This document shows, in pieces, positions 45,301-48,300 of a stretch of DNA of 64,000 bases. The DNA comes from Escherichia coli (GTDB lineage Bacteria; Pseudomonadota; Gammaproteobacteria; Enterobacterales; Enterobacteriaceae): the NCBI RefSeq assembly GCF_030013595.1, contig NZ_CP122768.1, one strand, 5' to 3'. Position 1 is the stretch's first letter. Each line of letters opens with the position of its first letter. The position numbers were made by a program.

Positions 45301-48300
45301 TCTGCCTGTGGATCAGGAAAGCGCACAGATTCTTTCTACCCCAATGCAGCAGCCCCAGCCGCGCAGATACAGCAACAAACGAACTGACAGCAGTAAGATG
45401 GAGCGTTTCTTTTGAACAACCAGACAACACCTTTTACCCCTGAACAATTACGTAAACAGGCACAGGAAATGTTGCGACAGGCGGAACAACTGGAAAAAAC
45501 AGGTGTAACAAAAGATGCCATTCGTCGGGATATGGTGCCAGCGCTCAGGGAACTGATGCAGGCGAAACACCGCGCACAAAAAGCGGTGGATGAGCTGGTG
45601 GATTGTGTGGCAGAGCTGGAAACCAGAGTTGGAAAGTTTGAAAAACTGGTGCAGGAGGTGCTGCGCTGATGCGTGATATTCAGATGGTTCTTGAGCGTTG
45701 GGGGGCATGGGTGGCAAATAATCATGAGGATGTCACCTGGTCATCGATTGCAGCCGGATTCAAGGGACTTATTCCTTCAAAGGTTAAATCGCGACCGCAA
45801 TGTAGTGATGATGACGCAATGGTTATTTGTGGGTGTATGGCTCGTTTGAAAAAGAACAACAGTGATTTGCATGATTTGCTGGTAGATTATTATGTGGCTG
45901 GTATGACGTTTATGGCACTGGCCCGTAAGCATCATTGTTCTGATGGATATATAGGAAAAAAACTTCAGAAGGCTGAAGGAATAGTCGACGGAATGTTGAT
46001 GGCACTGGATGTTCGTCTCGAGATGGATCTTGAAGTTGTTAGATGTTATTGATTAACGTTTGCTGGTAAAATTGAATAAAAAAGGGGACGCAAAAACGCC
46101 CCCAAGAGTTTAGAGTAATAAATAACAGAAGGTTAAAAAGAAAAGACAAAATGTCTTTCTTAATGCAGTGACGTGAGGGCGTCACCCACATGTTGTGGGA
46201 GATAAATATCTCCCACAACATATCTTTTTTAATAAAAAGATTTAGAACTGGTAAACCATACCGACAGCAACAATATCGTCGGTGTTTATACCAAGACCTC
46301 TGGTGAAATCATTTTTGTCAAGCAGGTTGATTTTGTAATCAACGAAAGTAGACATATTTTTGTTGAAGTAATAGGTTGCGCCTACATCAACATATTTAAC
46401 TAAGTCTTGATCGTCCCATACTCCGAGATCTTTACCTTTAGATTGCAGGTAAGCCACGGACGGACGCAGCCCAAAATCGAACTGATATTGTGCAACAGCC
46501 TCAACGTTCTGAGCTTTATTAGCGACGAAGCGATCAGCAAATACCGTCATATTCTGGGTTTCAGAATAGGTAGTGGCCAAGTAAATGTTGTTAGCGTCAT
46601 ATTTCAGACCAGCGGCCCAAACTTCTGCATTTTTACCGGAAGCAAATACTCCAGGAAGAACTTTCCCTAGATTAACTTGAGTGTCGGTACGGTCAGATTT
46701 CGCATAAGTTGCACCAATACCGAATCCTTCGTATTCATAGGTAGCAGAGAAACCGAAGCCATCACCGTTACCTTCGGTATAGTTATCGAGCTTGCTACGA
46801 TCGTTTTTGCCTTGGTACTGAGCAGCAAAGTTCAGACCATCAACCAGACCGAAGAAGTCGTTATTACGGTAAGTTGCAACACCAGTTGCACGCTGAGTCA
46901 TGAATACGTCGGTTTGAGTCCAGGTATCACCACCGAATTCTGGCAAAACGTCAGTCCACGCACCGATGTCGTATGCTACACCGTAGTTACGGCCATAATC
47001 GATGGAGCCGTAGTCACCGAATTTCAGGCCAGCGAATGCAAGGCGAGTTTTATCCCCGGAAGAACCTTGAGATTCAGCACGGTTGCCTTTGAATTCATAT
47101 TCCCACTGACCGAAACCAGTCAGTTGATCATTGATTTGGGTTTCGCCTTTGAAGCCCAGACGAGCATAAGTTTTGTCACCATCGTGTTTATCGTTAGAGG
47201 AGAAGTAGTGCTTGGCATTAACTTTTCCGTACAGATCCAGTTTGTTGCTGTCTTTGTTATAAATCTCTGCTGCTTGAGCAGACATCGCCATTAATACTGA
47301 CGCAGCTACAGCAGAGATTGCCACTGTTAATTTTTTCATCGTGAATCCTTAGTCCTTTTCGGAACTATTATTAAAAAATATTGTCACTGCGGCCTAAATA
47401 TACATCTAATCGGTATGGCTATTTCAAGATATGGAGTTTATTTAATGGTTCAAAGTGTGATCAAGATCTCGTTTATGCGTACTGGTAATTATTGACGATG
47501 TTTTTGTAATGAGAGATGCGCTTCTGAAATGTAATGAAAAGTTATTGTTTTTGTATTTTATAATGTAAATTCGTGCTGGTTTACGTACGTAAAAATTTAA
47601 ATATGATGTTAAGAGTGGTCACTTTGCCACACAGCTTAAACCAGCCGCCAAACGGGGTTTTTTATGCCCGAAAAGCGGCGCAGTACGTTAAACGCGCTGG
47701 TGGTTGCGAATACCGGTCTTTCAGCTTGCTGGCTTTTTCGACAAGAGTTATTGGTATGTCACGTTAACCGGAATAAGGGAAAAAGACATGCTAAAACAGC
47801 AGGATATGACCGAAACCGCCAGAGTGGTGTTTAATGAATTAAGCGTCACCGAGCCGGCGACCGTCGGGGAAATTGCGCAGAATACGTACCTTTCACGCGA
47901 ACGTTGCCAGTTAATACTGACCCAGCTTGTTATGGCAGGTCTGGCTGATTATCAGTTCGGTTGTTACAGACGCCTTCCGCAGTGAAGGCTTTTTAATTTG
48001 TGGTAATGGGCGGCTGGTGGGTGTTAGCGGCACCTGCCAGCCATCTGCTCATGCGTTGGGGTCACAAGCAAACCTCAGGCCCATCTGCTTTGCGCAAAAG
48101 CGGTATGAGCCTATCAGAGAAGTGCTTATTGATCTATGACTAATACTGTAAAAATATCCAGTTGTGAGTTAATCAACGCTGATTGCCTGGAATTTATCCA
48201 GACCTTACCGGAAAATTCTGTCGATCTGATAGTCACAGACCCGCCATACTTTAAAGTGAAGCCCGAGGGCTGGGATAACCAGTGGAAGGGCGACGATGAT

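What the first reader, a model, noticed from the sequence alone, without database searches (positions are those of the whole stretch)
46242..47339. Prophage-borne general porin as a moron between Q and the lysis genes
A complete OmpC/OmpF-family porin with its own signal peptide is encoded on the strand opposite to late transcription, the same configuration as nmpC in DLP12 and lc in PA-2. Lysogenic conversion of outer-membrane porin content can alter phage receptor availability and antibiotic permeability.
Basis: partly seen in the sequence, partly recalled or inferred. Interest (0 to 1): 0.4.

Follow-up and report, generated by a model that had tools for sequence, protein, structure and literature searches.

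The report
Prophage NmpC porin with IpeX tail
This is an intact but ordinary prophage-carried outer-membrane porin gene (NmpC/Lc type, found in about half of E. coli genomes); its 3' tail is a rare variant of the IpeX RNA whose conserved unpaired stretch matches the ribosome-binding sites of the host's own porin genes ompC and ompF.

Summary
Window 46242-47339 (-) is an intact 365-aa general porin (Pfam Porin_1, E 1.7e-154) with a 23-residue signal peptide. It lies convergent to a Q antiterminator gene in a phiP27-like prophage.

- **Identity:** it is an NmpC/Lc-type porin, 95.6% identical to the IS5-free DLP12 NmpC and about 63-67% to K-12 OmpC. dN/dS is 0.06-0.11, so the protein is under purifying selection.
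- **Frequency:** NmpC-type porins occur in 2,904 of 5,426 complete E. coli genomes. The finding is ordinary.

Three refinements:
1. The cargo lies between Q and a conserved promoter/leader block at 47580-47663 (+). That block follows Q directly in a cargo-free relative, so the porin probably sits upstream of the late promoter, not inside the late transcript.
2. The roughly 167-nt 3'UTR is a rare lineage (14 of 5,426 genomes) of the published IpeX RNA. Its stems covary: 8 compensatory pairs, reached by 0 of 500 shuffles.
3. The invariant unpaired segment has 15 contiguous pairs with the ompC Shine-Dalgarno region and, in this lineage, 16 with ompF. There is no comparable pairing with ompA or the phage porin's own leader. 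Held reviews state that IpeX has no such complementarity.

Expression was not testable here.

The parts
45669..46052 (+). Q antiterminator gene (127 aa, QuuD type; a distant relative of Q21)
   Evidence: PF06530 E 5.8e-54. It is 86% identical to DLP12 QuuD. It matches the Q21 structures 6p1a/6p18 at E 1.9e-9.
46078..46244 (-). Porin 3'UTR of about 167 nt, from the stop codon to the U-tract; homologue of the IpeX RNA of DLP12/PA-2, rare 'window-type' lineage
   Evidence: It aligns with the DLP12/434 3'UTR at 69% identity. MFE is -58.8 kcal/mol, z -9.3. Eight pairs carry compensatory changes, reached by 0/500 shuffles, with 98% of cells paired against 36-58% when slid. This lineage occurs in 14 of 5,426 genomes.
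46084..46103 (-). Intrinsic terminator hairpin of the porin transcript, followed by U6 at 46083-46078
   Evidence: The terminator scan gives GGGGGCGTTTTTGCGTCCCC + TTTTTTATTC. It is conserved in all lineages, with G-U wobbles on the porin strand.
46104..46137 (-). Unpaired, conserved 'seed' segment. The anti-ompC stretch UUAACCUUCUGUUAU is at 46136-46122. The anti-ompF stretch UGUUAUUUAUUACUCU is at 46127-46112.
   Evidence: It is unpaired in the MFE and centroid structures and is the most conserved part of alignment A5. It forms 15 contiguous pairs with ompC -19..-5 (1/500 shuffles) and 16 with ompF -13..+2 (1/500). Duplex energies are -19.6 and -18.6 kcal/mol; ompA and the phage porin's own leader are at shuffle level.
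46138..46161 (-). 3'UTR hairpin 3
   Evidence: MFE fold. A stem is present in each lineage with a different sequence: AGAAGCA/UGCUUCU in DLP12 and EC11, AGAAAGACA/UGUCUUUUCU here.
46167..46184 (-). 3'UTR hairpin 2 with the invariant loop CCCUCA (46178-46173)
   Evidence: Three of 7 pairs carry compensatory changes and the loop is invariant in 21 variants.
46190..46221 (.). 14-bp hairpin: hairpin 1 of the 3'UTR RNA on the minus strand. On the + strand it is followed by a T-run, so it is terminator-like behind Q.
   Evidence: The terminator scan on the + strand gives ATGTTGTGGGAGATAAATATCTCCCACAACAT + ATCTTTTTTA. Five of 15 pairs carry compensatory changes.
46242..47339 (-). Porin CDS (365 aa including signal peptide), an NmpC/Lc-type allele
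   Evidence: It is 95.6% identical to reconstructed DLP12 NmpC. dN/dS is 0.06-0.11. The exact protein is in NCBI as 'porin OmpC' on 42 contigs.
47271..47339 (-). Signal-peptide codons (residues 1-23, ...[10 protein letters not shown])
   Evidence: The mature N-terminus aligns with residue 1 of OmpC crystal chains.
47340..47430 (-). Porin 5'UTR and inferred promoter: TTGAAA at 47427-47422, TATATT at 47402-47397, SD AAGGA at 47350-47346
   Evidence: The block is conserved between the window, DLP12/434 and EC11. The hexamers were read by eye. The spacer is 19 nt and the promoter scan did not flag them, so this is inferred only.
47580..47663 (+). Putative Q-dependent late promoter cassette (PR'): -35 TTTACG at 47580-85, -10 TATGAT at 47602-07, invariant leader at 47608-47640, T6 at 47658-63
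   Evidence: Promoter scan hit with 9 of 12 matches. The block is conserved in every phage inspected with this Q family, whatever the cargo. It follows the Q stop directly in cargo-free Stx2_112808. The leader motif occurs once in the window and once in 170 of 217 loci. The hairpin before the T6 run is weak in this allele.
47788..47985 (+). 65-aa ORF conserved downstream of the block (homologue of phiP27 L23)
   Evidence: RefSeq CDS WP_000917767.1. The same position is occupied in phiP27, WGPS2, cdtI and Stx2_112808.
48136..49182 (+). N6/N4 DNA methyltransferase (late-region backbone gene)
   Evidence: PF01555 E 4.9e-45.
50269..51306 (+). Lysis cassette: two holins and an M15 endolysin
   Evidence: PF16931, PF05449 and PF13539; RefSeq annotation.

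Best explanation
The gene is a functional NmpC/Lc-type general porin carried as a moron by a phiP27-like prophage.

- **Where the cargo sits.** The unit (porin promoter, CDS, 3'UTR and terminator; about 46053-47579) occupies a recurrent cargo slot. The slot lies between the Q antiterminator gene and the Q-dependent late promoter block. The cargo points away from the late promoter and converges on Q.
- **Inferred expression.** In the lysogen the porin is transcribed from its own promoter, exported through its signal peptide and assembled as an OmpC-like trimeric pore.
- **Role of the 3'UTR.** The same transcript ends in a roughly 167-nt structured 3'UTR homologous to IpeX. That RNA is published to lower OmpC and OmpF.
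- **Proposed mechanism (inferred).** The conserved unpaired segment just 5' of the terminator pairs with the Shine-Dalgarno regions of host ompC (15 bp) and, in this lineage, ompF (16 bp). The host porins are then replaced by the phage porin. This would change receptor availability and permeability.

What is shown: gene identity, integrity, purifying selection, synteny, cargo boundaries, RNA structure covariation and complementarity. What is inferred: promoter activity, expression in this strain, the assignment of PR', and the pairing mechanism.
For: - **Porin identity and integrity:**
- **Homology to DLP12 nmpC:** same 190-bp spacing and homologous flanks.
- **Purifying selection:** dN/dS 0.06-0.11 at dS 0.33-1.1.
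- **Cargo slot:** phiP27 (GIY-YIG nuclease), WGPS2, cdtI, mEp460 and PhiR40_1 (reverse-strand ORFs) and Stx2_112808 (empty) share the Q ... block-ORF65-methylase backbone.
- **Own terminator:**
- **Composition:** GC 41% against 49-53% in the flanks.
- **3'UTR structure:** z -9.3. Eight compensatory pairs, reached by 0/500 shuffles. G-U cells favour the porin strand, 15 against 3.
- **Seed pairing:**. The MicF x ompF positive control gives -27.1 kcal/mol with 12 contiguous pairs. The ompA and own-leader negative controls are at shuffle level.
- **Target conservation:** the ompC leader is >=99% identical in 5,361 of 5,370 genomes.
[quoted passage not shown] The ompC mRNA is listed as an IpeX target (PMC3333887). 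nmpC genes are expressed at 37 C, reciprocally to ompC, in CFT073 (PMC12890032).
Against: - No expression data exist for this strain.
- The consensus scan did not flag the porin promoter, and the hexamers I propose have a 19-nt spacer.
- nmpC has been described as 'quiescent' in E. coli B. I have only the title of Prilipov 1998, from the reference list seen.
- Held reviews state that IpeX does not base-pair with ompC or ompF (PMC3617542; PMC10690425). I could not read the primary paper to see why.
- Covariation rests on only three deep lineages.
- The hairpin before the T-run of the putative PR' block is weak in this allele.
- The prophage copy in the window carries an IS in its helicase-loader gene. 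It may be defective, but that does not prevent moron expression.
Confidence: 0.7

Rival explanations
1. The gene is a quiescent passenger. The ORF is intact but silent in this strain under most conditions. It persists because it hitch-hikes in a now defective prophage, so there is no lysogenic conversion.
For: The IS1203-type insertion (41922-43228, 3-bp duplication GAA) interrupts the DnaC-like loader gene. The promoter scan did not flag a porin promoter. nmpC is called 'quiescent' in E. coli B (title cited). The K-12 copy is inactivated by IS5.
Against: dN/dS of 0.06-0.11 over dS up to 1.1 shows long-term selection on the protein. The 3'UTR stems covary and the seed is conserved. nmpC-type genes are expressed at mRNA and protein level in CFT073.
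Confidence: 0.2
2. The late promoter lies immediately downstream of Q (46053-46190). The hairpin at 46190-46221 would then act as tR'. On induction, Q-modified polymerase would read antisense through the porin gene and shut it off. The conserved block at 47580-47663 would be something else, such as a second terminator or a regulatory site.
For: The + strand hairpin at 46190-46221 is followed by a T-run and is terminator-like. Textbook cassettes place PR' directly after Q (bioRxiv 10.1101/651190).
Against: The sequence after the Q stop is the porin terminator and 3'UTR. It has no homology to the region after Q in cargo-free Stx2_112808, whereas the block at 47580+ does. In WGPS2 only 22 bp separate the Q stop from a reverse-strand gene. 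The scan found no promoter-like site in 46053-46190. The leader motif occurs only once in the window.
Confidence: 0.1
3. The 3'UTR complementarity to ompC and ompF is not functional. It is either a relic of shared ancestry of porin gene flanks or chance. IpeX would then act indirectly, as the reviews say.
For: The reviews say there is no base-pairing. All three lineages share the seed by descent, so the three significant tests are not independent.
Against: There are 15 contiguous pairs over the Shine-Dalgarno region, reached by 0-2 of 500 shuffles. The energy is comparable to MicF x ompF. The specificity mirrors the published phenotype of IpeX, which represses ompC and ompF; that OmpA is unaffected I know only from memory of the primary paper. 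The only seed substitution (C to U in the EC11 type) keeps the pair as G-U. The seed lies in the unpaired region next to a terminator with a U-tail.
Confidence: 0.4

Closest known systems
NmpC of cryptic prophage DLP12 (E. coli K-12) and of phage 434
   Same: The window porin is 95.6% identical to the IS5-free reconstruction. It has the same partner (QuuD-type Q, 86% identical) and the same 190-bp convergent spacing. The promoter-proximal region, 3'UTR and downstream leader block are all homologous.
   Different: The gene is intact here, whereas the K-12 and 434 copies carry IS5 after codon 346. The 3'UTR is only 69% identical and belongs to another lineage. The backbone is phiP27-like (DnaC/DnaB replication genes, methylase, tRNAs, P27-type terminase, M15 endolysin). 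DLP12/434 instead have the S21-type holin-lysozyme cassette directly after the block.
Lc porin (protein 2) of lambdoid phage PA-2
   Same: It is the paradigm of lysogenic conversion by a phage porin placed near Q. From memory, its 3'UTR is identical to ipeX and PA-2 lysogeny lowers OmpC. One JGI source names a member of this 90% cluster 'outer membrane porin protein LC'.
   Different: No PA-2 sequence was available in the collections, so identity to Lc was not measured.
IpeX RNA (DLP12/PA-2)
   Same: Same position (porin stop codon to intrinsic terminator) and about the same length (167 nt). The architecture is the same: three hairpins, an unpaired stretch, then the terminator. The hairpin-2 loop is invariant, as is the core AACCUUCUGUUAUnUAUUAC.
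   Different: All three stems have different sequences that keep pairing. The window lineage lacks the second 9-bp helix that the DLP12 type can form with ompC -32..-24. It gains a 16-bp match to the ompF translation start region. It is rare, in 14 of 5,426 genomes.
MicF and MicC (chromosomal antisense RNAs against ompF and ompC)
   Same: The proposed way of working is the same: an unpaired stretch pairs with the Shine-Dalgarno/AUG region of a porin mRNA. The window seed shares UUAUUUAUUAC with the MicF core.
   Different: The RNA is not a separate gene but the 3'UTR of an mRNA. It is phage-borne. Pairing is computed here, not demonstrated, and the literature denies it for IpeX.
OmpC of E. coli K-12 (solved structures 2j1n, 2xe2)
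   Same: Same family and fold class. It passes the NCBIfam OmpC-subfamily cut-off and has the PEFGGD eyelet motif and a C-terminal Phe.
   Different: Identity is only about 63-67%, with indels in the variable (loop) regions. It is a prophage paralogue, not the chromosomal ompC. RefSeq's gene name 'ompC' for it is a family-level label.
Stx2e phage phiP27 and Stx2d phage Stx2_112808
   Same: Same backbone around the slot: DnaC-DnaB-small ORF-Q ... block-65-aa ORF-methylase-tRNAs ... two holins-M15 endolysin.
   Different: phiP27 carries a GIY-YIG nuclease in the Q-PR' slot and stx2e in the tRNA-holin slot. Stx2_112808 has an empty Q-PR' slot. The window has the porin, and a 132-aa ORF instead of stx.

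Membership tests
General bacterial porin (Porin_1; OmpC/OmpF/PhoE family) | Full-length match to the family profile | tested here: met
   PF00267 positions 1-337 of 337, E 1.7e-154. NCBIfam OmpC subfamily 531.9 bits against a cut-off of 484.
General bacterial porin (Porin_1; OmpC/OmpF/PhoE family) | Cleavable signal peptide and a mature N-terminus like OmpC | tested here: met
   Residue 24 aligns with residue 1 of mature OmpC chains. The sequence is MKK + hydrophobic core + AQA|AE.
General bacterial porin (Porin_1; OmpC/OmpF/PhoE family) | L3 eyelet motif PEFGG and a C-terminal aromatic residue | tested here: met
   LPEFGGDTW and ...MVYQF are present in the alignment.
General bacterial porin (Porin_1; OmpC/OmpF/PhoE family) | Trimeric 16-stranded beta-barrel that forms a diffusion pore | not tested
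   Inferred from about 63-67% identity to solved OmpC structures.
NmpC/Lc prophage porin | High identity to DLP12 NmpC | tested here: met
   95.6% over 365 aa against the IS5-free reconstruction.
NmpC/Lc prophage porin | Convergent with, and directly downstream of, a QuuD-type Q gene in a prophage | tested here: met
   190 bp from Q stop to porin stop, as in DLP12 and 434. Phage genes lie on both sides.
NmpC/Lc prophage porin | Sequence identity to Lc of PA-2 | not testable with these tools
   No PA-2 record in the collections searched. Only a source-given name 'porin protein LC' for one cluster member.
NmpC/Lc prophage porin | Expressed in the lysogen and changes the outer-membrane porin profile | not testable with these tools
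   Only by analogy: CFT073 nmpC genes are expressed at 37 C (PMC12890032).
Moron (autonomous extra gene in a prophage) | Absent from otherwise syntenic relatives | tested here: met
   phiP27 and Stx2_112808 have the same backbone without the porin.
Moron (autonomous extra gene in a prophage) | Own terminator | tested here: met
   Hairpin at 46103-46084 plus U6 on the minus strand.
Moron (autonomous extra gene in a prophage) | Own promoter | tested here: inconclusive
   A conserved TTGAAA ... TATATT region lies upstream, but the consensus scan did not flag it.
Moron (autonomous extra gene in a prophage) | Base composition different from its neighbours | tested here: met
   Cargo GC 41% (intergenic parts 32-35%) against 50-53% for neighbouring phage genes.
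IpeX RNA | Lies between the porin stop codon and its intrinsic terminator, about 167 nt | tested here: met
   46244 to 46078 is 167 nt. The published length of 167 nt is cited in PMC12197685.
IpeX RNA | Sequence homology to DLP12 ipeX | tested here: met
   It aligns over its whole length at 69% identity, with an invariant core and hairpin-2 loop.
IpeX RNA | Conserved secondary structure | tested here: met
   Eight compensatory pairs, reached by 0/500 shuffles; 98% of cells paired against 36-58% when slid. Only three deep lineages.
IpeX RNA | Lowers OmpC/OmpF synthesis | not testable with these tools
   Only complementarity was computed.
IpeX RNA | Match to a curated RNA family model | tested here: not met
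   No Rfam 15 family matched the 3'UTR at E <= 1, apart from a spurious IsrM fragment. This probably means no IpeX model is in the library.
Q-dependent late promoter cassette (PR'-leader-tR') | Directly follows the Q gene in relatives without cargo, and travels with the Q family | tested here: met
   In Stx2_112808 it starts 36 bp after the Q stop. It is present with every Q of this family inspected.
Q-dependent late promoter cassette (PR'-leader-tR') | Sigma-70 promoter hexamers | tested here: inconclusive
   TTTACG-16-TATGAT gives 9 of 12 matches in the window. The -35 is not conserved in phiP27 or WGPS2.
Q-dependent late promoter cassette (PR'-leader-tR') | Intrinsic terminator shortly downstream | tested here: inconclusive
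   DLP12, phiP27 and Stx2_112808 have clear GC stems plus a T-run. The window allele has a weakened stem before its T6.
Q-dependent late promoter cassette (PR'-leader-tR') | Q binding, sigma-dependent pause and antitermination | not testable with these tools
   The Q21 QBE sequences are only in figures that are not held.

The most novel reading that the evidence does not exclude
The IpeX-type 3'UTR of prophage porin genes may work by plain antisense pairing, contrary to the reviews, which say it has no complementarity to its targets.

A conserved unpaired stretch next to the terminator covers the ompC Shine-Dalgarno region with 15 contiguous pairs in all three lineages. In the rare lineage present in this window the stretch is retuned: UAUAU becomes UAUUU and ACCC becomes ACUC. 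It then also covers the ompF Shine-Dalgarno-AUG with 16 contiguous pairs. That would make it a phage-borne MicC-plus-MicF analogue fused to the replacement porin's mRNA.
Probability: 0.45. Interest if true: 0.55.

Novelty: new member of a known kind. Interest (0 to 1): 0.35.

Why it matters
The porin itself adds little, because prophage NmpC/Lc porins are common and long known.

Two by-products are useful.
- **A testable mechanism for IpeX.** How IpeX silences OmpC and OmpF has been described as independent of base-pairing since 2006. The complementarity found here can be tested directly by compensatory mutation. If true, prophages swap the cell's porins with one transcript: the coding part supplies a new pore and the 3' tail removes the old ones. 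This matters for phage receptor availability and for permeability to antibiotics.
- **A recurrent cargo slot.** The gap between this Q family and its late promoter block holds varied cargo: a porin, a nuclease, or unknown reverse-strand genes. It lies upstream of the separate slot that holds stx in related phages.

Tried and rejected
- **Full-length duplex prediction.** RNA duplexfold on the whole 3'UTR against 130-150-nt leaders gave implausibly long duplexes and mixed z-scores. I replaced it with a contiguous-helix test and seed-only duplexes with controls.
- **Rfam.** No family matched the 3'UTR or the leader block.
- **StxS.** I asked whether the leader block is the published PR' short RNA of Stx phages. 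It is not: StxS goes with a 144-aa Q clade, not this 127-aa one. I kept only the principle that PR' transcripts co-vary with Q type.
- **Q21 binding site.** The QBE sequence is only in figures that are not held. Q here is only a distant relative of Q21.
- **Primary papers.** Castillo-Keller 2006 (ipeX) and Prilipov 1998 (quiescent nmpC) are not held. What I say of them is from memory or from citing papers.
- **PA-2 lc sequence.** Not in the phage collection.
- **Source genome.** No complete E. coli genome shares the IS junction, so the source strain is not in the collection. ETEC1732 is identical around the porin but differs in the structural genes.
- **Chromosomal ompC paralogue.** Rejected, because phage genes flank the gene on both sides.
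Full report
**1. The observation**

The ORF list shows a 365-aa ORF at exactly 46242-47339 on the minus strand. It matches Pfam Porin_1 over the whole profile (E 1.7e-154). It passes the NCBIfam OmpC-subfamily cut-off (531.9 bits against 484) but not the PhoE or OmpF equivalog cut-offs.

Against solved structures, residue 24 (AEIYNK) aligns with residue 1 of mature OmpC chains at E about 1e-139. Residues 1-23 are therefore a signal peptide ending AQA. The eyelet motif PEFGGD and the C-terminal Phe are present.

A Q antiterminator gene (PF06530) lies at 45669-46052 (+). Two holins and an M15 endolysin lie at about 50269-51306 (+).

**2. Where the window comes from**

The region 45600-49300 is 100% identical to the chromosomes of porcine ETEC strains ETEC1732, ETEC1734 and ETEC4085. 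There RefSeq annotates a prophage running from integrase to tail genes, with this gene labelled 'porin OmpC'.

The backbone is that of Stx2e phage phiP27. The order is DnaC-like loader, DnaB-like helicase, small ORF, Q, a slot, a conserved block, a 65-aa ORF, a DNA methyltransferase, tRNAs, a second slot, two holins, an M15 endolysin and a P27-type terminase. The second slot holds stx2e in phiP27 and a 132-aa ORF here.

The copy in the window differs from ETEC1732 in two ways. An IS1203/IS629-type element (41922-43228, 3-bp duplication GAA) sits inside the loader gene. The head genes are only 88% identical and the tail-side genes to the window end about 96.5%. No complete E. coli genome in the collection has that IS junction.

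**3. What the porin is**

| Comparison | Result |
|---|---|
| Reconstructed, IS5-free DLP12 NmpC | 95.6% identical |
| Other prophage porins | 88-95% identical |
| K-12 OmpC | about 63-67% identical |
| dN/dS against seven other prophage alleles | 0.06-0.11 at dS 0.33-1.12 |

The protein has therefore been under strong purifying selection.

The exact protein is already in NCBI, on 42 contigs. Its 90% cluster has 535 members, including E. albertii and Shigella, and one source names a member 'porin protein LC'.

NmpC-type porins match in 2,904 of 5,426 complete E. coli genomes, with up to three copies each. This allele (>=99%) occurs in nine. The gene is ordinary.

**4. The same module as DLP12**

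In DLP12 and in phage 434 the Q gene (86% identical) is followed after the same 190 bp by the stop codon of a convergent nmpC. In both records nmpC is interrupted by IS5. The 3' and 5' flanks align with the window.

**5. Where the late promoter is**

A block at 47580-47663 (+) has three parts:
- promoter-like hexamers (TTTACG-16-TATGAT);
- a 33-nt leader, GTTAAGAGTGGTYACTTYGYCACACAGCTTAAA, nearly invariant across the phages compared (only the three Y positions vary);
- a T-run, which in the relatives is preceded by a GC hairpin.

The block occurs with every member of this Q family I inspected, whatever lies between Q and the block:

| Phage or prophage | Cargo between Q and the block |
|---|---|
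| Window, DLP12, 434, ev-series | Porin (reverse strand) |
| phiP27 | GIY-YIG nuclease (forward strand) |
| WGPS2, cdtI, mEp460, PhiR40_1 | One or two reverse-strand ORFs |
| Stx2d phage Stx2_112808 | Nothing; the block starts 36 bp after the Q stop |

The leader motif occurs once in the window and once in 170 of 217 collected loci. Where I checked, it is divergent from the porin and about 400 bp upstream of its start.

This is the expected signature of the Q-dependent PR' cassette. The published principle is that PR' follows Q and co-varies with Q type. I therefore infer that the porin cargo sits between Q and PR', outside the late transcript.

Two caveats apply. In the window allele the stem before the T6 run is weak. 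No start site has been mapped.

**6. The 3'UTR**

The stretch from the stop codon to the U-tract of the terminator (46244-46078) is 167 nt. That is the published length of IpeX, the RNA made as the tail of the phage porin transcript that lowers OmpC (PMC12197685; PMC3333887).

Among 203 collected loci the 3'UTR falls into three lineages:
- the common DLP12 type;
- an EC11 type;
- the type present here, also found in UMNF18 and a few viral contigs, and in only 14 of 5,426 complete genomes.

It is 69% identical to the DLP12 type, whereas the CDS is 92% identical at DNA level.

The RNA folds into three hairpins, an unpaired stretch of about 34 nt and the terminator. MFE is -58.8 kcal/mol, z -9.3. 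On an alignment of 21 distinct variants:
- 98.2% of cells are paired;
- eight pairs carry compensatory changes, a count reached by 0 of 500 shuffles;
- sliding the partners drops pairing to 36-58%.

G-U cells outnumber A-C cells 15 to 3 on the porin strand. This fits an RNA read in the porin's sense. The hairpin-2 loop CCCUCA is invariant. The core AACCUUCUGUUAUnUAUUAC is invariant apart from the n position and one C-to-U change in the EC11 type.

**7. Complementarity to host porin mRNAs**

The K-12 ompC leader reads ...CAUAUAACAGAGGGUUAAUAACAUG. I scored the best contiguous helix between each RNA and the translation start regions (-45 to +20), against 500 dinucleotide shuffles.

| 3'UTR type | Target | Contiguous pairs | Shuffles reaching this |
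|---|---|---|---|
| Window | ompC (-19..-5) | 15 | 1/500 |
| DLP12 | ompC | 15 | 0/500 |
| EC11 | ompC | 15 | 2/500 |
| Window | ompF (-13..+2) | 16 | 1/500 |
| DLP12 / EC11 | ompF | 10 | 68 / 99 of 500 |
| All three | Phage porin's own leader | nothing above chance | 45-179/500 |

Seed-only duplex energies, against 300 shuffles:

| Pair | Energy (kcal/mol) | Shuffles reaching this |
|---|---|---|
| Window x ompC | -19.6 | 1/300 |
| Window x ompF | -18.6 | 11/300 |
| DLP12 x ompC (with a second 9-bp helix at -32..-24) | -26.7 | 0/300 |
| MicF x ompF (positive control, 12 contiguous pairs) | -27.1 | 0/300 |
| Window x ompA (non-target by my recollection of the primary paper) | -12.0 | 125/300 |

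The ompC leader is >=99% identical in 5,361 of 5,370 genomes, so the target site can be assumed in the source strain.

The held literature says the opposite. [quoted passage not shown] Another states that 'No complementary sequences exist' (PMC10690425). None of the four held papers containing ipeX, complementarity and ompC reports this match.

I could not read the primary paper. From memory, its abstract reports the following: no complementarity; repression of OmpC and OmpF but not OmpA; Hfq independence for ompC only.

That pattern would fit a long perfect helix on ompC and a weaker one on ompF. The pairing is a computed result. Its function is an inference.

**8. Mechanism proposed**

- **Shown:** an intact, selected porin gene with a signal peptide, its own terminator, and a structured, conserved 3'UTR.
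- **Inferred:** transcription from its own promoter in the lysogen. A conserved TTGAAA ... TATATT region and an AAGGA Shine-Dalgarno are present, but the scan did not flag a promoter. Also inferred: export and assembly as an OmpC-like pore, and repression of host ompC and ompF by the 3'UTR seed, so that the phage porin replaces them.
- **Supporting observation from elsewhere:** two nmpC genes of UPEC CFT073 are expressed at 37 C, at RNA and protein level, while ompC goes the other way (PMC12890032).

**9. Verdict**

The interest lies in the refinements: the position of the cargo relative to PR', a rare IpeX lineage with covarying stems, and a seed complementarity that the held reviews deny and that can be tested by compensatory mutation.

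Noticed in passing
window 41922-43228: An IS3-family element (IS1203/IS629 type; orfA at 42851-43177 and orfB at 41964-42854, minus strand) is inserted with a 3-bp duplication (GAA) in the prophage's DnaC-like helicase-loader gene. That gene is intact in ETEC1732. No complete E. coli genome in the collection shares the junction, so this prophage copy is probably replication-defective.
   Followed up: yes
window 49364-49436 (+), next to tRNA-Gly at 49443-49517: A tRNA-like sequence scores 45.9 bits on the Rfam tRNA model, but ARAGORN did not call it and RefSeq does not annotate it. It is a degenerate copy of the tRNA-Thr(UGU) that is intact at the same place in UMNF18. The substitutions are in the D-loop and the anticodon stem, while the acceptor-stem changes are compensated.
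   Followed up: partly
window 46053-47579; L004, L005, L212-L215: The gap between this Q family and its leader block is a recurrent cargo slot. It holds a porin, a GIY-YIG nuclease (phiP27 L22), one or two unannotated reverse-strand genes (cdtI orf53/54, WGPS2 gp26/27, mEp460, PhiR40_1), or nothing (Stx2_112808). I did not look at what the unknown reverse-strand genes do.
   Followed up: partly
window 49635-50033 (+): The position that holds stx2e in phiP27 and stx2 in related Stx phages (after the tRNAs, before the holins) holds a 132-aa ORF of unknown function here. In EC11, PEC41 and UMNF18 it holds a TerB-family gene.
   Followed up: no
window 47640-47680 (+): In this allele of the leader block, the GC stem that precedes the T-run in DLP12, phiP27 and Stx2_112808 is weakened by substitutions. 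The predicted fold instead pairs GCCGC (47644-48) with GCGGC (47675-79) around the T-run. Whether this changes termination at the late promoter is unknown.
   Followed up: partly
window 46190-46221: The first hairpin of the 3'UTR RNA is followed on the + strand by ATCTTTTTTA. The same DNA therefore looks like an intrinsic terminator for transcription leaving the Q gene, which would shield the porin from antisense read-through.
   Followed up: partly
window 46173-46178 (minus strand); L216, L211: The invariant hairpin-2 loop CCCUCA is the complement of UGAGGG. That sequence is the ompF Shine-Dalgarno (CAUGAGGGUAA) and also occurs in the ompC leader at about -65. It may be a second contact site. 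It is only 6 nt, so no statistics were run.
   Followed up: no
DLP12-type 3'UTR (L003 1841-2029) against the ompC leader -32..-24: The common DLP12-type IpeX can form a second 9-bp helix (CCCUUUAUUU with AAAUAAAGG) upstream of the 15-bp one. This gives -26.7 kcal/mol in all. The window lineage lacks it but pairs better with ompF. The two lineages seem tuned to different targets.
   Followed up: partly
window 52160-58172 and 58564-64000 against L001: The head and tail genes are only 88% and 96.5% identical to ETEC1732, although the early and late-regulatory region is 99.6-99.96% identical. The prophage is a mosaic of a shared left half and a different structural module.
   Followed up: partly
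porin CDS 3' end (window 46245-46310) and 3'UTR: The CDS is 92% identical to DLP12 nmpC but the 3'UTR only 69%. The last residues ([13 protein letters not shown]) resemble the UMNF18/EC11 alleles. This suggests a recombination junction near the 3' end of the gene.
   Followed up: no
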